Source: Candidatus Komeilibacteria bacterium RIFOXYD1_FULL_37_29
Lineage (GTDB): Bacteria; Patescibacteriota; Patescibacteriia; UBA1558; GWA2-36-10
Direction: 5' to 3'
DNA: 64,000 nt
Assembly (NCBI GenBank): GCA_001818495.1
Contig: MHKS01000004.1
Location: forward strand, 1,421-65,420
In this document: in pieces, positions 7,149 to 62,522 of the stretch
How positions within the stretch are numbered: position 1 is the stretch's first letter
Layout: the number at the start of each line of letters is the position of its first letter
Notes under the pieces: generated by a model
What the model saw: only the letters and a program-made list of their open reading frames with translations
What the model was told of the DNA's origin: nothing
The model's database searches: none
Program-made: the position numbers and the translations under genes

Positions 7149-8099
7149 ATGTCCAAGATTAACAAAAAGCTGCTGGACATACACACGGAGCTTGACAGAG
7201 CAATTCTAGATTTAGCTTTTTTTGGAAAGTTGAATCACAATTTTCATCCTGCTGCGGCAGGGGATGTTAGTCAGGTTTTTTCCAGTGAAGCAAGTACGGA
7301 ATTAGCATCTCGTTTTCACAGTCAAGCCAGCAAATGGTTTCCAATTTCCAAAATAGAGGAGTTGGCATATATTAGGGCTGACGGACGCACAGATTATAGA
7401 AGCGAGGGAGTTAGCAACACTTCTTTCTATGCTTATTCCAAGTGTCTTGCCAATAGAGTGATGCTCATTACCAGAACAGGATCACAAATCCCGGCTATTT
7501 CACAAACCATTTTAGAGGGTTTAGAAGGCACATTACTTGTTCTTCTGGAAATCAATGATGCTGGTGATGCTATCAGAATTTTGTTTGGCAACAAACAGTT
7601 TGGTTCTATTCCCTCCATAGAAACACATGTTCATATTTTAGGAGGAGCCATAGGAATTAAGGAGGGAATAGAAACGCCAGCTTTGGTTCACGCTCATCCC
7701 TTAGAACTTATTCTGTTGGCATCGCACCCCAGAATCAAGGGTAACCAAGATCTCTTCAACGCTATTTTGTATACCCAAGTAGAGGGAATTAACAGAATAG
7801 AGCCAGGCTTAGTAGCTCTTGTGCTTTACAAGCCATCTGGATCAGCTATTTTAGTAGAATCTAGCATATCTTCTTTGGAGAGGCATAAGATAGTTATCTG
7901 GCTAAACCATGGAGTTGTAGTTAGAGCTTCAAGTATCGAGCGTGGTTATGCAGTCATGGCCTATGCAGATAGAGATGCTAAGGTGGCTCTCCAGGCTCTA
8001 GCTGGGAAGTTTGTGGGTTTGCCGTTTGATGTCGTGGAAAGTTTTTTACGACAGCACAATTTGTTAGATTCTTATAACCATCTGGGATTGAATAAATAA
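7149..8099 (+). CDS. class II aldolase/adducin-domain protein (RhaD/FucA-like) with N-terminal extension
   Basis: VHAHP (HxH metal ligands) and later WLNHGVVVRASSIERGYAVMAYADRDAKVA resembling class II aldolase His/Ala-rich helix; good SD (GGAGGAACACAAATG); GC-elevated (~43%). Confidence 0.45.
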   Translation: MSKINKKLLDIHTELDRAILDLAFFGKLNHNFHPAAAGDVSQVFSSEASTELASRFHSQASKWFPISKIEELAYIRADGRTDYRSEGVSNTSFYAYSKCLANRVMLITRTGSQIPAISQTILEGLEGTLLVLLEINDAGDAIRILFGNKQFGSIPSIETHVHILGGAIGIKEGIETPALVHAHPLELILLASHPRIKGNQDLFNAILYTQVEGINRIEPGLVALVLYKPSGSAILVESSISSLERHKIVIWLNHGVVVRASSIERGYAVMAYADRDAKVALQALAGKFVGLPFDVVESFLRQHNLLDSYNHLGLNK

Positions 8100-8109
8100 G
8101 GAGGACACA

Positions 8110-8205
8110 ATGATTATCCCAGAGGAAGGTCGCATAATTTTATGCGACCTTTTTCTTAATCAGATAAACCACCAGCGATTAGCCGGAGGTATGTTCATTT
8201 TATAA
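8110..8205 (+). CDS. possible 31-aa small ORF (MIIPEEGRIILCDLFLNQINHQRLAGGMFIL)
   Basis: Consensus SD AAGGAGG 5 nt upstream of ATG, directly after aldolase-like gene; no homology inferable. Confidence 0.2.
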   Translation: MIIPEEGRIILCDLFLNQINHQRLAGGMFIL

Positions 8206-15051: not shown

Positions 15052-15186
15052 ATGAATAGTAAGAAAGTAGCTATTCGTGCCGTTGAGATATGCCAAAAGG
15101 AGCATATCTCGCCAGAGGGTGCTGTTGTTCTCGCTGCCAGAGAACTTCACATTCCCCTGACGCCAGCGGCGAAGGGGGCAACATGA
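15052..15186 (+). CDS. small protein (44 aa) at start of GC-rich island
   Basis: SD GGAGG 7 nt upstream; stop overlaps start of next gene (ATGA); ~50% GC versus ~33% flanks. Confidence 0.35.
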   Translation: MNSKKVAIRAVEICQKEHISPEGAVVLAARELHIPLTPAAKGAT

Positions 15187-15758
15187 GGCGAGCCCTCTGG
15201 GTACTGTCCTTCAGTATCCTCATAGTCACTGGGATAATCATTGCCTGCCAGGACGGATCAGTCCCGACGGCAATGTCTACCCAAACCAATGACACTCCCA
15301 CGATGTTAGGCGCGGCAACGTCTTTTGTCGCCGGAGCGTCATATTCAGACTCACACCGTAATGCGATTTTTATCCCTCGAAACGAAACTGACAGCGGTGG
15401 CGTGTATGCATTCGATATTAGAATTGATGGCAGCCATCAATTCCAGGCCGAAATTTCTTTGGCAGCTTTCATCGTCTTTTCTGAAGCCCTAGATCTTCAG
15501 CAGATCGCAGATGTTGGAACACCCAAAGAAACGACGTTTCCTGTAAACACTCGGGCCATTCCAGGCACTATCTGGAAACATCGTACTTTAGACGCCTGGA
15601 TTATTATCGAGGACGTAGAAGGCGATGTCTACACTTGTGACATCCGCATAAATGGTTCGAGTCAACTTTTGCCGGTTAAGGTATCGGTCCAAGCTCTTCA
15701 GCAAACGCTATCTATCGCGTTTTTCACCGATCTCCTTTCGGAACGTTCTATCCAATAA
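15183..15758 (+). CDS. lipoprotein (191 aa) with internally duplicated ~70-aa domain
   Basis: Signal peptide + lipobox IIAC-Q; AFDIRIDGSHQ... and TCDIRINGSSQ... tandem domain repeat; ORF-track start 15090 is in-frame upstream but ATG 15183 is translationally coupled and begins the signal peptide. Confidence 0.5.
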   Translation: MRRALWVLSFSILIVTGIIIACQDGSVPTAMSTQTNDTPTMLGAATSFVAGASYSDSHRNAIFIPRNETDSGGVYAFDIRIDGSHQFQAEISLAAFIVFSEALDLQQIADVGTPKETTFPVNTRAIPGTIWKHRTLDAWIIIEDVEGDVYTCDIRINGSSQLLPVKVSVQALQQTLSIAFFTDLLSERSIQ

Positions 15759-21908: not shown

Positions 21909-22460
21909 ATGGATAATAAAGAATTAGCGCTAATTCAGGCCTGTCAAAGCGGAAACAATGAAGCTTTTGGACAATTATATGACCAGTATTTTAAAAAAAT
22001 ATACAGTTTTATCTATTATAAGGTTAGCCACAAGGAAAGCGCGGAAGATTTGGTAGCGGATACTTTTTATAAAGCTCTGGCTAATTTAAAAAAATTTAAT
22101 AGCGCTCAAGGAAATTTCAACGCCTGGATTTATCGAATAGCCAGGAATACAGTGATTGATCACTACCGCGGTAGTAAAGATGTTCAAGATTTGGGGGCTT
22201 TACCGGATTTTTCAGAGATAGATAGTACTATAGATCAAAGATTATCTTTGGAAGAAGTGCGTGATAAATTATATAAGTTAAATGAAACCCAGAGAGAAAT
22301 AATTATTTTACGGGTTTGGCATGATTTATCATATCAAGAGATAGCCGAAATAGTCGGCAAGTCAGAGGATAACTGCAAAATGATTTTTTCCCGGGGTATT
22401 AAAGAACTTAGATTATCACTAGCTAGTCTCATAATATTATTTACTATGTTGATCAATTAA
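21909..22460 (+). CDS. ECF-type RNA polymerase sigma-70 family factor
   Basis: Region 2 (AEDLVADTFYKA...AWIYRIARNTVIDHYR) and region 4 (LSYQEIAEIVGKSEDNCKMIFSRG). Confidence 0.8.
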   Translation: MDNKELALIQACQSGNNEAFGQLYDQYFKKIYSFIYYKVSHKESAEDLVADTFYKALANLKKFNSAQGNFNAWIYRIARNTVIDHYRGSKDVQDLGALPDFSEIDSTIDQRLSLEEVRDKLYKLNETQREIIILRVWHDLSYQEIAEIVGKSEDNCKMIFSRGIKELRLSLASLIILFTMLIN

Positions 22461-22464
22461 AAAT

Positions 22465-23982
22465 ATGACAGAAAATATAAAAATTTTTTTAGATGACTTA
22501 TATGCAGTGGACAGTAGCTTTAAAAAACACGAAAGAGAATTGATTGATATTATAGAAAAATTATTATCTTCTAAACCAGATATAAAATTTAATAAATCTT
22601 TCCAAAGCCGGTTGCGCGCCGAGCTTTTGGAAAAATTAGCCCAAAAAGAAAATAAAAAAATTAATTTTAATTATATGAATAACAAACTATTTTATGCTTT
22701 TGGTGCATTAGCACTATTTTTATTGCTAATTATACCAAGCTTATCTCCAGAGAGTTCTTTCAAGAATACCAAGACAGCCAAAGTCAATTTTGACTTACAG
22801 GTTAATAAGGTCAGTAAAAATGCTTTTGGTCCATTGGTGGCTCAAAATGCTGCTACAGCCGGATCAGAAGTTTCTTATGCCGTTGGTCGTGGTGGTGGCG
22901 GTGGTGGAGTAGCCGCAGCCGGGGATATGGCTGTTGAAGCGGACAGTAAATTAATATACCCTCAGCCCGTAGAGTACAAATATGTTTATGCCGGAGAAGA
23001 ATTTTCTCTTGATAATGCTCAAATGGAAGTTTTGAAAAAGATCAAAGGTTCAGGTTCTCAAAACGAGATGGCTCAATTTTTACAAAACGTAAATTTTGAT
23101 AATATCAGTTTACAATCTTTGGACGATCCTAAACTAAGAAACTTTACTATCTACGAGGACAAAGACTTTGGTTATTCTATTTATGTTGATTTGTATGAAG
23201 GTATGATTTCTATCAATGAAACTTGGGAAAGATGGCCAATCTATAATTACAATACTTATCTTGAGCCGATGAAGATAGAAAATATTCCTGGCGACGAACA
23301 ACTGATAGGCATGGCCAATAAATTTTTAAATGATTATGGTATCAGTACCGCTAGCTATGGCGAGCCACGGGTAGACAATAGTTGGCGCGAAATTTATATG
23401 CGGACTGAAGATAAGAGTATGGTCTATGTGCCGGATGTAATGACTATTGTTTACCCATTGATTATTAATGGGCAGGAAATTTATGAAGAATGGGGTGGAA
23501 CTATGGGGCTTCGAGTGTCTATAAATGTTAGATATAACAAGGTCAGCAACATGTGGAATTTGAGCAATCAGAAATATCAGAGCTCAATTTATGACATGGA
23601 AACAGATGTTAATAAAATATTAGACTTAGCCTCACGTGGCGGAAATTATTATTACTACTATCAGGATCCTAGTGCTAAAACAGTAGAAATAACTCTGGGT
23701 ACTCCACGCTTGGGCTATATGCAGACCTGGCAGTATACTGATAATGTTAGCCATGAGTTATTGGTCCCAGCTTTGATTTTTCCGGTCACCAATATTCCTA
23801 CCGATGCCGAGTATTTTTATCGGGAGAGCGTAGTTATTCCACTGGCCAAAGAAATTATTGATCAAAGGATGCAGGGTGGTGATTTGCCAGTACAGATTAT
23901 GGAGGATCAAACAGTGTCATCAGAAGAGACAGCTCCAGCCGAGCCAGTAGTTGACTTACCAGCCGTAAAATTGGAAGAATAA
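22465..23982 (+). CDS. membrane-anchored protein downstream of sigma factor (putative anti-sigma/sensor), Gly-rich linker and large extracytoplasmic domain
   Basis: Start 5 nt after sigma stop; N-terminal cytoplasmic segment, one TM, GRGGGGGGVAAAG linker; context only. Confidence 0.4.
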   Translation: MTENIKIFLDDLYAVDSSFKKHERELIDIIEKLLSSKPDIKFNKSFQSRLRAELLEKLAQKENKKINFNYMNNKLFYAFGALALFLLLIIPSLSPESSFKNTKTAKVNFDLQVNKVSKNAFGPLVAQNAATAGSEVSYAVGRGGGGGGVAAAGDMAVEADSKLIYPQPVEYKYVYAGEEFSLDNAQMEVLKKIKGSGSQNEMAQFLQNVNFDNISLQSLDDPKLRNFTIYEDKDFGYSIYVDLYEGMISINETWERWPIYNYNTYLEPMKIENIPGDEQLIGMANKFLNDYGISTASYGEPRVDNSWREIYMRTEDKSMVYVPDVMTIVYPLIINGQEIYEEWGGTMGLRVSINVRYNKVSNMWNLSNQKYQSSIYDMETDVNKILDLASRGGNYYYYYQDPSAKTVEITLGTPRLGYMQTWQYTDNVSHELLVPALIFPVTNIPTDAEYFYRESVVIPLAKEIIDQRMQGGDLPVQIMEDQTVSSEETAPAEPVVDLPAVKLEE

Positions 23983-24141: not shown

Positions 24142-24861
24142 ATGAAAAATATAGTATTTATTTTAGCCATAAGCTTGCTTTTGTCTGGTTGCTCTTTGAT
24201 TAGATCCGTTCCCAAAATAGAGCCAAATACTCAATCACCAGATGGTATAAACACCAATTCGCCAGCGCCAGTGGTTACCGTTAAAGATAGTCTTGATTTG
24301 AGTGGGCAAGGCTTGAGCCAGGTTGATCAATCAGTTTTTAAGCAAAGCAATTTACGTCAGTTAGATGTTTCTGACAACCAATTGACCGGGGCTTTGCCAG
24401 CTGAGATTAGACAGTTACAAAATTTGCAGATTTTAAGAGCGACCAATAATCAAATGACTGGTGTACCAGCGGAGATTGGACAACTTAGTAATTTGATAGA
24501 ACTGGATTTATCAAACAATCAATTGACTGGTTTACCTTACGAACTCGGAAATTTAAAAAATTTAAAAATATTAAATTTATCAGGTAATAACGTATCACAA
24601 TATGATCTAGATATTATTCGTCAGAGCTTATCGGCGGATGTAAATATTATTATGGACAGCCAGCAAAATGTGGCAGTGATTTATTGTCAGCCAGAGCAAA
24701 GACAGGCTGAAGTATGTACGACTATTTATAGTCCAGTGTGTGCCACAGTTAATATCCAATGTATCAAAGCGCCCTGTGATCCTATTAAGGAAACTTTTTC
24801 TAATAGTTGTGTAGCTTGTCAAAATAGTTTAGTAGAATCTTATGTTACTGGGGAATGTTAA
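24142..24861 (+). CDS. lipoprotein with leucine-rich repeats and C-terminal Kazal-like Cys-rich domain
   Basis: Lipobox LLSGCS; LRR units LxxLxxLDLSNNQLTGLP x5; C-terminal C..YSPVCATV..C..C..FSNSCVAC..C pattern resembling Kazal inhibitor domain. Confidence 0.5.
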   Translation: MKNIVFILAISLLLSGCSLIRSVPKIEPNTQSPDGINTNSPAPVVTVKDSLDLSGQGLSQVDQSVFKQSNLRQLDVSDNQLTGALPAEIRQLQNLQILRATNNQMTGVPAEIGQLSNLIELDLSNNQLTGLPYELGNLKNLKILNLSGNNVSQYDLDIIRQSLSADVNIIMDSQQNVAVIYCQPEQRQAEVCTTIYSPVCATVNIQCIKAPCDPIKETFSNSCVACQNSLVESYVTGEC

Positions 24862-24995
24862 ATTATGGCTCAATAGTATTTTTAAAAAGAAAAGGGGATT
24901 TTTGGAAAAGTTGGAGAAAATATTTTAGAAATTAATAGAGTAAGGCGTTTTGGCGTCTCACTCTATTTTTGATTTCCGGGCGAGTAGTGTAGAGT

Positions 24996-25172
24996 TTAAC
25001 GCTCTTCTCGTTCGAAATCTTCAACCGGCTCTTCGTCTGATGTAACAGACACTGGCGGAAGATGGTCTGGCCGTCCATGATTTTGTCTAGCGCTTTTGGC
25101 GCCAGTACAACTACATTGGAGGCCCACGGGCACACCAACATGACAGAACGGGCAAGTGTCAATCTCGGCCAT
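24996..25172 (-). CDS. small Cys4 zinc-ribbon-like protein (58 aa) with acidic tail
   Basis: SD AAAGGAG 7 nt upstream of ATG; CPFC...C.C motif; GC-rich (~50%) island; longer 85-aa ORF-track version overlaps upstream small gene. Confidence 0.4.
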   Translation of the reverse strand: MAEIDTCPFCHVGVPVGLQCSCTGAKSARQNHGRPDHLPPVSVTSDEEPVEDFEREER

Positions 25173-25209
25173 AAAATACTCCTTTCGGGCAAGAGACATG
25201 GTTGGGTAT

Positions 25210-25320
25210 TTAGTGGAGAATGCCTGGAAGGTATAGGTAGGCAAGGAAAGCAAGTATTATGCCTACCATACTAACCAATAAGTAGATACTGCCATGAATT
25301 AGGTCTTTACGAATACCCAT
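25210..25320 (-). CDS. 36-aa hydrophobic membrane peptide (MGIRKDLIHGSIYLLVSMVGIILAFLAYLYLPGILH)
   Basis: Consensus SD AAAGGAGGA 7 nt upstream; single predicted TM helix; immediately upstream of the zinc-ribbon gene on the same strand. Confidence 0.35.
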   Translation of the reverse strand: MGIRKDLIHGSIYLLVSMVGIILAFLAYLYLPGILH

Positions 25321-25503
25321 CTTTTAATCCTCCTTTCAAGCCAAGATACTTTGTGATATAGAACGGGGATATAATTTTGAAGTTTAATTGAAAACTTAGA
25401 GCTAGTCAATATTTATAGTTTGACAAAATAGTTTTTAGAGAGTAGTTTAGGTAGTTGAGAAGAAGTTTTTTTACATAACCTATGACTATGAAAGGAGTTT
25501 GTC

Positions 25504-26211
25504 ATGAAAGCTGTATCGAGATGGCTTTATGACTGCCTCAGTCATATGGTCTTAATTGTTGGCTGGCTATGGGCTTATTACATTTTCCGTATCAAAAACA
25601 AGGTCGAGATAATCGGCCGAGAAAATATACCCCATAGTACCAATGCACTATTCCTTTCCAACCATCAAACACTGATCGACTCTTTCCTAATTGGATTGGT
25701 TACGGTCAGTTTTTGGGAGACGCTTTTTCATCCCGAGCGTATTCCTTGGAATGCCCCTGATCGAACCAACTTTTTGACGCATAGGGTCTGGAAACACCTT
25801 TTCCAGCTTTTGAAAAATGTACCAGTAGAGCGTAAGATTACTAATCTAGAAACCATCAATCATCAGGTAGAGCTTTTTTGTGAAGCTCTAACTGGTAGTA
25901 ATCTGTTATTATTTTTTGAAGGCACTCGGACCAGGAATGGCGATATCGGCGAATGTCGTCCAGGGGTATCTGAGACCATCCGCTTAGCTAAACCACGTTT
26001 TGTCGTTCCAATATTATTGGAAGACATACAGGTAATCATGCCAATTGAAGTAGGTTTCAGCTACAAAGGTATTTCTGGTGGCCACAAAGGTCGCATTGTT
26101 ATCGGGCAGCCGATTGATTTTTCCGACCTGGATATGTCAGGTCGAGTGAGAAAAGAGATCGGACATCGTGTCCGGCAAGCAGTGATTGATTTAAAAACTC
26201 ATCGTCAGTAG
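25504..26211 (+). CDS. 1-acyl-sn-glycerol-3-phosphate acyltransferase family (PlsC-like LPLAT)
   Basis: NHQTLIDSF (HX4D motif), FFEGTRTRNG (FPEGTR motif), N-terminal TM; SD AAAGGAG; GC-elevated. Confidence 0.7.
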   Translation: MKAVSRWLYDCLSHMVLIVGWLWAYYIFRIKNKVEIIGRENIPHSTNALFLSNHQTLIDSFLIGLVTVSFWETLFHPERIPWNAPDRTNFLTHRVWKHLFQLLKNVPVERKITNLETINHQVELFCEALTGSNLLLFFEGTRTRNGDIGECRPGVSETIRLAKPRFVVPILLEDIQVIMPIEVGFSYKGISGGHKGRIVIGQPIDFSDLDMSGRVRKEIGHRVRQAVIDLKTHRQ

Positions 26212-26226
26212 CGATGAGTTTTAATT

Positions 26227-27065: not shown

Positions 27066-27647
27066 ATGTCAATTGTCCAAAATCCAGACAAATTATCGGA
27101 CGAAGAAATCGTTAGGCTTACTTTAAAAGAGAAAGACAATTTTTTGTATTTGATTAAAAGATATGAAGGTAAACTAAGCCGTTATATCAGTCGTATCGCT
27201 GGGCTAAATAAAGAAGACACGGAAGATATTTTGCAAGAAGTTTTTATAAAAACTTATCAAAATATCAATAGCTTTGATAAAGATTTAAAATTTTCTTCCT
27301 GGATTTATCGTATTACTCATAATGAGGTGATTGATAATTATCGCAAAAAACAAGCTAGGCCACAGATGATTACTTATGATAATGAATTAATACTAAATAA
27401 TATCATTGGTGATTTGGATATTTCTCGCGAGCTTGATCGTAAGTATTTGCAGACACATATTAGTCAGCTTCTTAGCAGTTTAGATTTGAAGTATCGGGAA
27501 GTGTTGGTTTTAAAATTTTTGGAAGAAAAAGAATATAAAGAAATATCGGATATTTTAAAAAAACCAATGGGCACGGTAGCTACTCTGATCAATCGGGCCA
27601 AAAAGCAGTTTCTGGAAAAATTAAAAAAACAAGATATTAAATTATAA
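27066..27647 (+). CDS. ECF-type RNA polymerase sigma-70 family factor
   Basis: Region 2 (TEDILQEVFIKTYQNI...SWIYRITHNEVIDNYR), region 4 (KEYKEISDILKKPMGTVATLINRAKK). Confidence 0.8.
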   Translation: MSIVQNPDKLSDEEIVRLTLKEKDNFLYLIKRYEGKLSRYISRIAGLNKEDTEDILQEVFIKTYQNINSFDKDLKFSSWIYRITHNEVIDNYRKKQARPQMITYDNELILNNIIGDLDISRELDRKYLQTHISQLLSSLDLKYREVLVLKFLEEKEYKEISDILKKPMGTVATLINRAKKQFLEKLKKQDIKL

Positions 27648-27650
27648 TAT

Positions 27651-28412
27651 ATGGAGGAAAAAGATATTTCTCAAGAAATACTTGATAAAATAAAGGAAGT
27701 TAAACCAAAACCCCGTTGGCAATTTTTGCTGAATGATTATTTGATTTGGTTTTTGGCCAGTTTCTCCTTGATTGTTAGTAGTCTAGCCTTTGCCGTTGTT
27801 TTATATATGTTGGTAGATAATGATTGGGATGTCTATACTCGTATCAGCAACAGCCTATTGGAATTTGTATTTTTGACATTTCCTTATTTTTGGTTGATAT
27901 TTTTGGGAGGATTTATTTTAATTACCTATTATAATTTTCGGCATACTAAAAATGGATACAAGTATCCGCTTAGTAAAATATTTTTAGCTTCGTTTTTAAT
28001 AAATATATTGCTCGGCACATTTTTATATAATGTCGGAGTCGGCCAAGCTATTGATAATGCGGTAGCCAAACGTGTGCCTTTTTATAAAGAATTTATTAAT
28101 AAAAGAAAGCACATTTGGTCTAGAATTGATGATGGTCTTTTGGGGGGAGTGGTCACGGCTATTGAAGAAGAATATATACTTATAAAAGATATAGAGGGAA
28201 ATGTTTGGACTATAAAGCATTTTAATACTACTACTCCAGAATTTGTTCGTTTGCAACTTGGTCAGCCGGTTCGCATTATTGGTCAAAAAATAGACAGTCA
28301 AAATTTTGAAATGTTTATAATGCTACCGATGCGCGGTATGCATTGGATGAGGGGGCAAAATTTTCCGCCAGCTGTACCACCACCTATGATCAATGAAAGA
28401 AATTTTAGATAA
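27651..28412 (+). CDS. membrane protein downstream of sigma factor (putative anti-sigma)
   Basis: Start 4 nt after sigma stop; 3-4 TM helices then soluble domain; context only. Confidence 0.4.
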   Translation: MEEKDISQEILDKIKEVKPKPRWQFLLNDYLIWFLASFSLIVSSLAFAVVLYMLVDNDWDVYTRISNSLLEFVFLTFPYFWLIFLGGFILITYYNFRHTKNGYKYPLSKIFLASFLINILLGTFLYNVGVGQAIDNAVAKRVPFYKEFINKRKHIWSRIDDGLLGGVVTAIEEEYILIKDIEGNVWTIKHFNTTTPEFVRLQLGQPVRIIGQKIDSQNFEMFIMLPMRGMHWMRGQNFPPAVPPPMINERNFR

Positions 28413-51172: not shown

Positions 51173-51466
51173 TCAGCTATACTTGTGCTCTTTTTTGTAG
51201 ATGTTTCGGTTGGACCGAAGCATTGACCAAAAGAGTAAAGCACACAATGAGTTGCTGGCGATATTGATGCTGGCCGTCAGGTTGTTTGGAGAGGCAATAT
51301 GCCAGATAAAGGAGATGAGTGCCACCAGGAAACAGACAATAGCCAAATAGGCTTGACCGTCTTCCAAGCGGTTGGTGGTCCAGGTCTTTTTCCTTTTGTC
51401 GACCTGGACCATCCAGCTGACTATATTGAAAATAAAAGCCAGCGACATGAAGAGCCATAGCCACAT
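51173..51466 (-). CDS. small membrane protein (3 TM), hypothetical
   Basis: SD GGGAGG 8 nt upstream of ATG; hydrophobic; alternative overlapping frame 51177..51464 rejected. Confidence 0.4.
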   Translation of the reverse strand: MWLWLFMSLAFIFNIVSWMVQVDKRKKTWTTNRLEDGQAYLAIVCFLVALISFIWHIASPNNLTASINIASNSLCALLFWSMLRSNRNIYKKEHKYS

Positions 51467-61939: not shown

Positions 61940-62015
61940 CGTCCTGTAGCTCAGCTGGTTAGAGCATCACTCTTATAAAGTGGGGGTCCCGGGTTCAAAT
62001 CCCGGCAGGACGACC
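61940..62015 (+). tRNA. tRNA-Ile (anticodon UAU), CCA encoded
   Basis: Cloverleaf folded by hand: acceptor CGTCCTG/CAGGACG, D-arm GCTCAGCTGGTTAGAGC, anticodon stem TCACT/AGTGG with loop CTTATAA, T-arm CCGGGTTCAAATCCCGG, 3' ACCA. Confidence 0.85.
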
Positions 62016-62085
62016 ATTTAATTAAATTGACACACTTATTGGTTTTTGGTAAAATTGTATAGTTAAACTAAACAAATACAAATAT

Positions 62086-62297: not shown

Positions 62298-62522
62298 TTA
62301 GGCGGCAGGGTTTTTATGGATCCGGCCGTAATCAATCCAAGAAACACAATGGGTTTCGACATATCGATTTTGGAAACAATCAATCTGTCCTAAAAGTGTG
62401 TCTTGGAAGTAGACGCCTTTTTCTACCCCGACTGTTTTGATGTCAAAATCATACCGCTTATTAGCTTCAAAGGTAAATCCTTTGATAGAAACTGGATGGT
62501 GGAAAAGAACAACTTGTCGCAT
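62298..62522 (-). CDS. hypothetical small protein (74 aa)
   Basis: Intact ORF with terminator hairpin (62255-62285) downstream; no family recognised. Confidence 0.35.
   Translation of the reverse strand: MRQVVLFHHPVSIKGFTFEANKRYDFDIKTVGVEKGVYFQDTLLGQIDCFQNRYVETHCVSWIDYGRIHKNPAA

What the first reader, a model, noticed from the sequence alone, without database searches (positions are those of the whole stretch)
24930..26220. Second GC-elevated block: tandem tiny genes (36-aa TM peptide plus 58-aa Cys4 zinc-ribbon protein) next to a PlsC-like acyltransferase
On the minus strand there are two very small genes, each with a textbook SD (AAAGGAGGA and AAAGGAG) at ideal spacing.
- The first encodes a 36-aa single-helix hydrophobic peptide.
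- The second, 37 nt downstream, encodes a 58-aa protein with a CPFC-(9)-CSC zinc-ribbon-like motif and a strongly acidic tail.

Both lie in sequence of about 48-50% GC, as does the adjacent PlsC-like gene (about 44%), against a roughly 33% background.

Pairs of a small membrane peptide and a small zinc-ribbon protein are typical of uncharacterised toxin/immunity, membrane-stress or phage-derived modules. The ORF track merges the two into an implausible 85-aa frame.
Basis: partly seen in the sequence, partly recalled or inferred. Interest (0 to 1): 0.62.

Follow-up and report, generated by a model that had tools for sequence, protein, structure and literature searches.

The report
Small orphan zinc-finger gene, optional leader ORF
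One of the two tiny genes, a 58-residue four-cysteine protein, is a real and selected gene found only in a few close relatives of this groundwater Komeilibacteria genome, but the 36-residue membrane peptide is an optional add-on, so the supposed toxin/immunity pair and foreign-DNA island are not supported.

Summary
The sequence features are there: two minus-strand ORFs (36 aa at 25210-25320, 58 aa at 24996-25172), each behind GAAAGGAG, diverging from a PF01553 acyltransferase gene.

- **Source.** The window is Candidatus Komeilibacteria RIFOXYC1_FULL_37_11. GenBank lists the 58-aa gene as a 67-aa hypothetical protein.
- **58-aa ORF: a real gene.** Four diverged orthologues keep its frame, start, ribosome-binding site, promoter and terminator. 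dN/dS is 0.09-0.20. The 85-aa, 67-aa and alternative-frame readings are not conserved. AlphaFold gives a roughly 30-residue Cys4 hairpin-plus-helix mini-domain and a disordered acidic tail. No family, structure, phage, plasmid or defence match was found.
- **36-aa ORF: optional.** It sits in a ~150-nt insertion present in only two of four lineages. It evolves neutrally (dN/dS 0.81).
- **GC rise: not foreign DNA.** In the 58-aa gene it comes from amino-acid composition (GC1 0.68, GC3 0.41). The acyltransferase orthologues are GC-richer than their flanks in every relative examined, which argues against recent transfer.

Verdict: an ordinary but genuine lineage-restricted small zinc-finger protein gene of unknown role. 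It is not a toxin/immunity or phage module. Interest is low to moderate.

Caveat: an off-by-one error spent my only exhaustive protein search on the wrong reading frame.

The parts
24996..25172 (-). 58-aa small protein gene (MAEIDTCPFCHVGVPVGLQCSCTGAK...DEEPVEDFEREER): an N-terminal Cys4 mini-domain and a disordered acidic tail
   Evidence: Four diverged orthologues have the same start and stop. dN/dS is 0.09-0.20, and 14-24 of 22-37 differences per pair fall at the third codon position. C7, C10, C20 and C22 are invariant. AF2 pLDDT is 80-89 for residues 1-30 and about 57 for the tail. GenBank lists it as the 67-aa hypothetical protein OGY94340.1.
25179..25186 (-). Shine-Dalgarno GAAAGGAG of the 58-aa gene, 6 nt before the ATG
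   Evidence: Identical in window, L007, L011 and L012.
25210..25320 (-). 36-aa hydrophobic ORF (one predicted TM helix): an optional upstream cistron or leader ORF
   Evidence: Present in window/L018 and L011, absent in L007 and L012. dN/dS is 0.81, with differences at codon positions 1/2/3 of 7/4/4. It is not called by any source.
25330..25337 (-). Shine-Dalgarno GAAAGGAG(GA) of the 36-aa ORF
   Evidence: Conserved in L011.
25195..25346 (-). About 150-nt lineage-specific insertion (SD + 36-aa ORF + spacer), bounded by imperfect direct repeats TCTTGGCTTGAAAGGAG (25330-25346) and TCTTGCCCGAAAGGAG (25179-25194)
   Evidence: Alignments, repeat coordinates. There is no other copy in the window and no similarity to the 58-aa gene beyond the SD. 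The boundaries are approximate.
25381..25409 (-). Sigma-70-type promoter of the small-gene transcript: TTGACT-17-TAAACT
   Evidence: Promoter scan. The hexamers are conserved with a variable spacer in L007, L012, L017 and L018.
25420..25448 (+). Likely acyltransferase promoter TTGACA-17-TAGTTT, back to back with the small-gene promoter (the two -35 boxes are 10 nt apart)
   Evidence: Read from the sequence. TTGACA and TAGT(T/C)T are conserved down to the 61%-identity relative L019. It falls below the scan tool's threshold, so this part is inferred.
24935..24966 (-). Intrinsic-terminator hairpin followed by UUAAUUUCU, shared with the convergent LRR gene
   Evidence: Fold energy -16.6 kcal/mol, z -4.4. 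Conserved in L007, L011 and L012 with wobble or compensatory changes. Also present in L010 and L019, which lack the small gene.
25504..26211 (+). Divergent lysophospholipid acyltransferase family gene (PlsC-like, 235 aa) with its own GAAAGGAG SD at 25490-25497
   Evidence: PF01553 E 2e-13. TIGR00530 scores 35.8 bits, below its cut-off of 102.95. HX4D lies at residue 54 and FFEGTR at residue 137. Orthologues occur across Patescibacteria.

Best explanation
This is a short transcription unit on the minus strand of a Candidatus Komeilibacteria genome.

**Anatomy.**
- It starts at a sigma-70-type promoter placed back to back with the promoter of the divergent acyltransferase gene.
- It ends at a conserved hairpin terminator.

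**The constant product.**
- It is a 58-residue, soluble, acidic protein.
- Its first ~30 residues form a four-cysteine, presumably zinc-binding, hairpin-plus-helix mini-domain.
- The rest is a disordered proline-rich linker and an acidic tail (DEEPVEDFEREER).
- The gene is real, under purifying selection, and restricted to a narrow clade.

**History.**
- More distant relatives have only the acyltransferase promoter followed directly by the same hairpin. The small gene therefore arrived as an insertion between the two.
- In the window's sub-lineage a further ~150-nt insertion added a second ribosome-binding site and a 36-codon hydrophobic ORF upstream.
- That ORF is probably translated, but it shows no selection on its sequence and is not an obligate partner.

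**Inferred, not shown.** Like other ~60-residue zinc-finger micro-proteins, the 58-aa protein most likely acts by binding a partner macromolecule through the metal-stabilised knuckle and the acidic tail. This would be a small regulatory or adaptor role. Nothing identifies the partner. The divergent acyltransferase is only a positional candidate.
For: **Shown**
- Four diverged orthologues have the same start, stop and SD. dN/dS is 0.09-0.20, with third-position bias.
- The alternative frame is broken by a stop in L007. The 67-aa and 85-aa extensions are lost or frameshifted in relatives.
- Promoter TTGACT-17-TAAACT, with conserved hexamers and a variable spacer.
- Terminator hairpin at z -4.4.
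- All four cysteines are invariant.
- The AF2 model has strands at residues 4-6 and 13-15 and a helix at 23-30. pLDDT is 80-89 there, and the tail is low-confidence.
- L010 and L019 have the promoter followed directly by the hairpin, with no small gene.
- The 36-aa ORF lies within an indel present only in window/L018 and L011. Its dN/dS is 0.81.

**Inferred**
- Zinc binding.
- The partner-binding role.
Against: - No function-bearing homologue was found by any method, so the mechanism rests on analogy.
- Only four orthologues exist, all 79-86% identical. Conservation of individual residues therefore says little.
- The structure model rests on three sequences (pTM 0.37).
- Foldseek found nothing better than E 0.8.
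Distant homologues may have been missed.
- L017 keeps the promoter but not the gene at that position. The promoter may therefore have a role that does not depend on the gene.
- The neutral-evolution result for the 36-aa ORF rests on a single pair with 15 differences. The peptide stays hydrophobic (GRAVY 1.36 and 1.19).
Confidence: 0.75

Rival explanations
1. Toxin/immunity or toxin-antitoxin pair: the 36-aa membrane peptide is a toxin and the 58-aa zinc protein neutralises it.
For: A small hydrophobic peptide is co-transcribed with a small soluble protein, and both have strong ribosome-binding sites. An antitoxin left without its toxin can persist, so finding the 58-aa gene alone does not strictly exclude this.
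Against: - The pair is not conserved. L007 and L012 have the 58-aa gene alone. By dS these are the outgroups, so the 58-aa gene came before the peptide.
- The peptide evolves neutrally.
- No hits in PADLOC, Pfam, NCBIfam or PHROGs.
- No mobile-element genes were identified among the neighbouring genes scanned against Pfam.
- No relatives in viral, phage or plasmid collections.
Confidence: 0.05
2. In the window's sub-lineage the 36-aa ORF is a real, functional membrane micro-protein. It may work with the 58-aa protein or the neighbouring membrane acyltransferase.
For: - A strong SD at good spacing, in a genome where SDs are rare.
- The ORF is intact and of the same length in both lineages that carry it.
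- Hydrophobicity and the N-terminal K/R are retained.
- Single-pass helices tolerate many substitutions, so a high dN/dS is not decisive.
Against: - dN/dS is 0.81. Eleven of 15 differences are non-synonymous, against 11.5 expected under neutrality.
- Divergence is 13.9%, against roughly 10% in the non-coding flanks by my own count on the alignment.
- It is absent in two lineages.
- No homologues were found anywhere.
Confidence: 0.25
3. Horizontally acquired GC-rich island that covers the small genes and the acyltransferase.
For: - GC is locally 49% in 24950-25249 and 43% in the acyltransferase, against 36% overall.
- SD-led genes in this window tend to be GC-richer.
- The 58-aa gene is an insertion relative to L010 and L019 and has no known source. 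A foreign origin for that gene alone is therefore not excluded.
Against: - The acyltransferase's named homologues are all Patescibacteria.
- A histidine-phosphatase gene lies next to or near the acyltransferase in L007, L010 and L013 as well.
- Its orthologues are 3-9 GC points above their flanks in all seven relatives examined, so the excess is old and belongs to the gene.
- The 58-aa gene's GC3 is 0.41, about 1.2 sd above the gene mean. Its GC1 is 0.68, which means the excess comes from amino-acid composition.
- No integrase or transposase gene was identified among the neighbouring genes scanned against Pfam.
Confidence: 0.1
4. The conserved element is a non-coding RNA or regulatory leader, or the true product is the 85-aa, 67-aa or alternative-frame 86-aa ORF.
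For: - Gene callers chose the 67-aa start in most assemblies.
- An 86-aa ORF overlaps in another frame.
- A hairpin inside the 36-aa ORF keeps pairing in L011 through one compensatory change.
Against: - The substitution pattern is that of a protein in the 58-aa frame.
- The alternative frame has a stop in L007, and its database hits are repetitive junk.
- The 67-aa ATG is out of frame in L011 and absent in L007 and L012.
- Rfam finds nothing.
- The leader fold is not significant, at z -0.2 and -1.6.
Confidence: 0.03

Closest known systems
Small zinc-finger micro-proteins of prokaryotes, e.g. Halobacterium Brz (PMC2253796) and Haloferax HVO_2753 (PDB 6ydh, which appears among the non-significant Foldseek hits)
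   Same: About 60 residues, stand-alone, with a C(P)xC knuckle. Encoded in a short gene next to a gene it might regulate. Presumed to act by binding a partner, not by catalysis.
   Different: Those are archaeal proteins with CPxCG pairs. There is no detectable sequence or significant fold similarity. This protein has CPFC plus CxC and a long acidic disordered tail. No function has been tested.
NblD, a 66-aa cysteine-motif protein of cyanobacteria (PMC7865187)
   Same: A small bacterial protein with cysteine motifs that works as an adaptor by binding a partner protein.
   Different: No homology was found. It comes from a different phylum and context, and its partner is known (per that paper's abstract it acts in phycobilisome degradation).
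YacG-type zinc-finger gyrase inhibitor (from memory, not tested beyond Pfam)
   Same: A bacterial protein of about 60 aa with one Cys4 site followed by an acidic C-terminal tail.
   Different: Pfam reported no family at all for the 58-aa protein, which would include any YacG model. The cysteine spacing also differs. This is a resemblance only.
Type I toxins and other small hydrophobic membrane peptides (for the 36-aa ORF)
   Same: 30-40 residues, a single hydrophobic helix, positive N-terminus.
   Different: No family match, no evidence of an antisense RNA, neutral evolution, and present in only part of the clade.
Lysophospholipid acyltransferase (LPLAT/PlsC) family, PF01553 (the neighbouring gene)
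   Same: The HMM match is above the gathering score. HX4D and EGTR motifs are present.
   Different: It scores below the TIGR00530 PlsC cut-off, so the substrate is unassigned.

Membership tests
Zinc ribbon (two CxxC knuckles on two beta-hairpins) | First knuckle CxxC on a beta-hairpin | tested here: met
   CPFC at residues 7-10 lies between the modelled strands 4-6 and 13-15.
Zinc ribbon (two CxxC knuckles on two beta-hairpins) | Second CxxC knuckle on a second hairpin | tested here: not met
   The second pair is C20-S-C22 (CxC), immediately before helix 23-30 in the AF2 model. This looks more like a treble clef or a simple knuckle. The model comes from only three sequences, and there is no Pfam zinc-ribbon hit.
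Zinc ribbon (two CxxC knuckles on two beta-hairpins) | Metal actually bound | not testable with these tools
   Needs a metal analysis of purified protein.
Toxin-antitoxin or toxin-immunity pair | The two genes co-occur as a conserved pair | tested here: not met
   L007 and L012 carry the 58-aa gene without the 36-aa ORF.
Toxin-antitoxin or toxin-immunity pair | Homology to known toxin, antitoxin or defence families | tested here: not met
   No hits in PADLOC, Pfam, NCBIfam or PHROGs.
Toxin-antitoxin or toxin-immunity pair | Toxicity of one partner relieved by the other | not testable with these tools
   Needs an expression experiment.
Phage-derived or mobile module | Relatives in phage, viral or plasmid sequence, or flanking mobility genes | tested here: not met
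   Nothing significant in phage records, plasmid records or IMG/VR. The neighbours are LRR, acyltransferase, histidine phosphatase and ECF sigma genes.
Recently transferred genomic island | Atypical synonymous-site composition | tested here: not met
   GC3 is 0.41 for both the 58-aa gene and the acyltransferase. The gene mean is 0.318 with sd 0.072, so both are about 1.2-1.3 sd above it.
Recently transferred genomic island | Patchy or foreign phyletic affinity | tested here: inconclusive
   For the acyltransferase this is not met: the homologues that carry a source name are all Patescibacteria, and the GC excess is shared by the orthologues examined. For the 58-aa gene the origin is unknown, because it is an insertion relative to L010 and L019.
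PF01553 acyltransferase (LPLAT) | HMM above the gathering score, with HX4D and EGTR motifs | tested here: met
   50.7 bits against a cut-off of 23. HQTLID at residue 54 and FFEGTR at residue 137.
PlsC (TIGR00530 1-acylglycerol-3-phosphate O-acyltransferase) | Score above the curated cut-off | tested here: not met
   35.8 bits against a cut-off of 102.95.

The most novel reading that the evidence does not exclude
The locus may record the stepwise birth of a small-protein operon in a reduced Patescibacteria genome.

1. A ~300-nt cassette (promoter, SD, Cys4 micro-protein) landed between the acyltransferase promoter and an older terminator hairpin.
2. A second ~150-nt piece later added an SD-led hydrophobic proto-gene.

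In this reading the zinc micro-protein, alone or with the membrane peptide, regulates the divergently transcribed membrane acyltransferase. That would be a new kind of micro-protein control over lipid acylation in organisms that scavenge lipids from their hosts.
Probability: 0.08. Interest if true: 0.55.

Novelty: new member of a known kind. Interest (0 to 1): 0.25.

Why it matters
**Practical value.**
- It corrects an annotation: the start gives 58 aa, not 67 aa, and there is an unannotated 36-codon ORF.
- It shows that a small ORF in a candidate-phyla-radiation genome is a real gene under selection, in a family that no database describes.

**Evolutionary value.** The presence/absence series across close relatives is a clean small example of how tiny genes are gained in a streamlined genome:
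- no gene (L010, L019);
- the 58-aa gene alone (L007, L012);
- the 58-aa gene plus the 36-aa ORF (window, L011, L018).

**Limits.** It opens no long-standing question, and no function can be assigned.

Tried and rejected
**1. A frame error of mine.** In some searches I gave window:24996-25171:- for the 58-aa ORF.
- That range is one base short and translates the overlapping alternative frame.
- This cost one of three word-indexed protein searches and the only exhaustive HMMER search (result).
- Those results serve only as a negative control for the alternative frame. Its two hits are repetitive junk.
- I repeated the family scans with the correct sequence.

**2. Searches for relatives of the 58-aa profile that found nothing.**
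- GTDB genomes, JGI metagenome contigs and IMG/VR.
- The 5.8-billion-protein search gave only three clusters, all at least 79% identical.

**3. The 36-aa profile.** No relatives in JGI metagenome contigs or IMG/VR.

**4. The acyltransferase as a single query against GTDB genomes.** No relatives.

**5. Structure-based and related searches.**
- The PDB sequence search gave E of at least 0.22.
- Foldseek against PDB gave E of at least 0.8.

**6. The 36-aa cassette as a tandem duplicate of the 58-aa gene or a repeat element.** No similarity beyond the SD and no second copy in the window.

**7. L017 as a degraded remnant of the 58-aa gene.** The similarity I saw by eye is not above shuffled controls.

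**8. A structured leader RNA that hides the second SD.** The folds are not significant.

**9. Literature on SD usage in Patescibacteria.** The search found nothing useful.
Full report
**What is in the sequence.**

The minus strand between the LRR gene (24142-24861, +) and the acyltransferase gene (25504-26211, +) carries two small ORFs.

- The first is a 36-codon ORF at 25210-25320 (MGIRKDLIHGSIYLLVSMVGIILAFLAYLYLPGILH). It follows GAAAGGAGGA.
- The second, 37 nt further on, is a 58-codon ORF at 24996-25172 (MAEIDTCPFCHVGVPVGLQCSCTGAKSARQNHGRPDHLPPVSVTSDEEPVEDFEREER). It follows GAAAGGAG.

The C-terminal half has 9 D/E against 3 K/R, and the pI is 4.7.

The GC figures need correcting.

| Feature | GC |
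|---|---|
| 58-aa ORF | 52% |
| 36-aa ORF | 39.6% |
| Acyltransferase | 42.8% |
| Whole window | 36% |
| Mean of 63 large ORFs | 36.4% (sd 4.3) |

The 85-aa ORF is the 58-aa frame extended upstream to a TTG. It is not a fusion of the two genes.

**A mistake of mine.**

In some searches I used 24996-25171, which is one base short. That range translates the overlapping alternative frame.

- This spent one word-indexed protein search and the only exhaustive HMMER job (result).
- Those outputs say nothing about the zinc-finger ORF.
- The two hits of the alternative frame are repetitive junk.
- I repeated the family scans with the correct sequence.

**Where the window comes from.**

An exact look-up places the neighbouring proteins and the 67-aa version of the small gene in Candidatus Komeilibacteria bacterium RIFOXYC1_FULL_37_11. 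There it is hypothetical protein A2406_02910, OGY94340.1.

- The same 644-nt region occurs unchanged in six other assemblies.
- It is also unchanged in a groundwater contig whose acyltransferase is 98% identical (L018).
- No source calls the 36-aa ORF.

**The 58-aa ORF is a real gene.**

Three diverged orthologues were recovered.

- L007 came by synteny. Its acyltransferase is 84% identical.
- P0060 (locus L011) and P0061 (locus L012) came from the protein search with a two-sequence profile.

The evidence for a protein-coding gene in this frame:

- All orthologues keep the same ATG, the same stop position and the same GAAAGGAG.
- Protein identity to the window is 79-86%, and all four cysteines are invariant.
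- Pairwise dN/dS is 0.09-0.20. Between 14 and 24 of the 22-37 differences per pair fall at third codon positions.
- The alternative-frame 86-aa ORF has a stop in L007.
- The ATG of the 67-aa version is out of frame in L011 because of a 1-nt indel. It is absent in L007 and L012.
- The region of the 85-aa TTG is deleted in L007 and L012.

**The transcription unit.**

- *Promoter.* The scan finds TTGACT-17-TAAACT at 25409-25381 on the minus strand. Across L007, L012, L017 and L018 the two hexamers are kept while the spacer sequence varies.
- *Acyltransferase promoter.* Ten nucleotides from the -35 box, on the other strand, lies TTGACA-17-TAGTTT (25420-25448). It is conserved down to the 61%-identity relative L019. 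I read it as the acyltransferase promoter. It is below the scan tool's threshold, so this is an inference.
- *Terminator.* Downstream of the 58-aa stop, a hairpin at 24966-24935 followed by UUAAUUUCU folds at -16.6 kcal/mol, z -4.4. It is conserved in all orthologous loci with wobble or compensatory changes.

**History of the locus.**

- In the more distant relatives L010 and L019 (acyltransferase 63% and 61% identical), TTTTGTCAAAA of the acyltransferase promoter is followed directly by the same hairpin (TAGAGTAAGG...CCTTACTCTA). There is no small gene.
- In L008 and L009 (67%) a methyltransferase gene occupies the slot.
- A profile search of the six-frame translations of all loci found the 58-aa protein only in window-type contigs, L007, L011 and L012.
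- L017 (80%) keeps the minus-strand promoter, but unrelated sequence and then a scaffold gap follow it.

The 58-aa gene is therefore a lineage-restricted insertion between an older promoter and an older terminator. It has been lost or replaced at least once.

**The 36-aa ORF is an optional later addition.**

It lies in a ~150-nt segment present in window/L018 and L011 and absent from L007 and L012.

- The segment is bounded by imperfect direct repeats that include the two ribosome-binding sites (25330-25346 and 25179-25194).
- By dS, window and L011 are each other's closest relatives (0.43). L007 (0.68) and L012 (0.80) are further out. One gain is more parsimonious than two identical losses.
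- The segment has no second copy in the window and no similarity to the 58-aa gene beyond the SD.
- Between window and L011 the ORF has 15 differences, spread 7/4/4 over the codon positions.
- Eleven are non-synonymous, against 11.5 expected under neutrality. dN/dS is 0.81.
- Divergence is 13.9%. The non-coding flanks show about 10% by my own count on the alignment.
- The peptide stays hydrophobic (GRAVY 1.36 and 1.19), and the ORF is unbroken in both lineages.

Translation is plausible, but nothing shows selection on the product. This rests on one sequence pair, so it is weak evidence in either direction.

**Composition and transfer.**

- The 58-aa gene has GC1 0.68, GC2 0.48 and GC3 0.41. 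Gene GC3 in the window averages 0.318 (sd 0.072). Its high GC is therefore mostly a consequence of a protein rich in Gly, Ala, Pro, Arg, Glu, Asp and Val.
- The acyltransferase's homologues that carry a source name are all Patescibacteria (Komeilibacteria, Falkowbacteria, Patescibacteria group).
- A histidine-phosphatase gene lies next to or near the acyltransferase in L007, L010 and L013 as well.
- Its orthologues are 3-9 GC points above their flanks in all seven relatives examined.

That argues against recent transfer of the acyltransferase. The source of the 58-aa gene remains unknown.

**What the 58-aa protein looks like.**

- *Sequence searches.* There is no match in Pfam, NCBIfam, PHROGs or PADLOC, nor in PDB sequences, where the best E is 0.22. 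Phage and plasmid records gave nothing significant. IMG/VR, GTDB genomes and JGI metagenome contigs gave nothing.
- *Structure model.* AlphaFold2 with three sequences gives pLDDT 80-89 for residues 1-30: strands 4-6 and 13-15, then a helix at 23-30. The rest scores about 57.
- *Reading of the fold.* CPFC lies on the hairpin and CSC just before the helix. This resembles a treble-clef or simple knuckle more than a two-hairpin zinc ribbon.

**Mechanism.**

- *Shown:* a selected small gene with its own promoter, SD and terminator, whose product has four invariant cysteines and a disordered acidic tail.
- *Inferred:* it binds zinc and acts by binding a partner, as described for other ~60-residue zinc-finger micro-proteins such as Brz (PMC2253796) and for NblD (PMC7865187).

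The back-to-back promoters make the acyltransferase a positional candidate for a functional link. No data support more than that.

**Rivals.**

- A toxin/immunity pair is unlikely. The pairing is not conserved, the 58-aa gene came first, the peptide drifts neutrally, and no defence or toxin-antitoxin family matches.
- A phage or island origin has no support for the block as a whole.
- A non-coding or alternative-frame reading is contradicted by the substitution pattern.
- The most serious open alternative is that the 36-aa ORF is a real young membrane micro-protein in its sub-lineage. I put this at about 0.25.

**Verdict.**

This is a genuine, lineage-restricted small Cys4 protein gene, mis-started in GenBank, with an optional upstream hydrophobic ORF. 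It is a new member of the known kind "small zinc-finger micro-proteins". It is not a toxin module and not a foreign island. Interest is low to moderate (0.25).

Noticed in passing
whole window; SD-led starts at 7149, 25504, 43856 (approx.), 51466(-), 57831, plus the two small ORFs: Shine-Dalgarno sequences are rare in this genome. Only 4-6 of 63 large ORFs have AGGAG/GGAGG at -18 to -4, and most starts sit in plain AT-rich sequence. The few SD-led genes tend to be GC-richer (0.41-0.46), and three of them cluster in this locus.
   Followed up: partly
window 61940-62016 (+): The only tRNA in the window is tRNA-Ile with anticodon TAT. This is an unusual way for a bacterium to read AUA.
   Followed up: no
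window 8110-8205 (+) and 62298-62522 (-): Two more SD-led small ORFs. One is 31 aa (MIIPEEGRIILCDLF...), right after the stop of the 7149-8099 gene and behind AAGGAGGA. The other is 74 aa, behind AAAAGGAG. I did not check either for conservation.
   Followed up: no
window 15090-15758 (+) and 51173-51466 (-): These are the strongest composition outliers among the large ORFs. The 222-aa ORF has GC 0.495. The 97-aa hydrophobic ORF has GC3 0.653 and a GGGAGG SD.
   Followed up: no
L007 1816-2723: In the closest diverged relative, two extra genes (TspO/MBR and a pyrimidine-dimer glycosylase, Pyr_excise) sit between the LRR gene and the small gene. The slot downstream of the terminator hairpin is therefore a variable region.
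   Followed up: partly
L017 ~459-754: A relative whose acyltransferase is 80% identical keeps the minus-strand promoter TTGACT-17-TAAACT. Unrelated sequence and a scaffold gap stand where the 58-aa gene should be. The promoter is more widely kept than the gene.
   Followed up: partly
window 25231-25271 (-): A 12-bp hairpin inside the 36-aa ORF (GUAUGGUAGGCA...UGCCUACC-U-AUAC) is kept in L011 through one compensatory G-C to A-U change. Five of the 15 differences between the two ORFs fall in its loop. It may be chance.
   Followed up: partly
window 24932-25192 (-): An 86-codon ORF overlaps the 58-aa gene in another frame. It is broken by a stop in L007, and its only database hits are repetitive proteins.
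   Followed up: yes
window 24142-24861 (+): The LRR lipoprotein-like gene ends in a cysteine-rich segment with a weak Kazal-type inhibitor match (E 0.018, below the cut-off). The same C-terminus is conserved in L012.
   Followed up: no
window 21909-23982 and 27066-28412: Two ECF sigma factor genes, each followed by a gene for an uncharacterised protein (possibly an anti-sigma factor), flank the locus within 5 kb.
   Followed up: no
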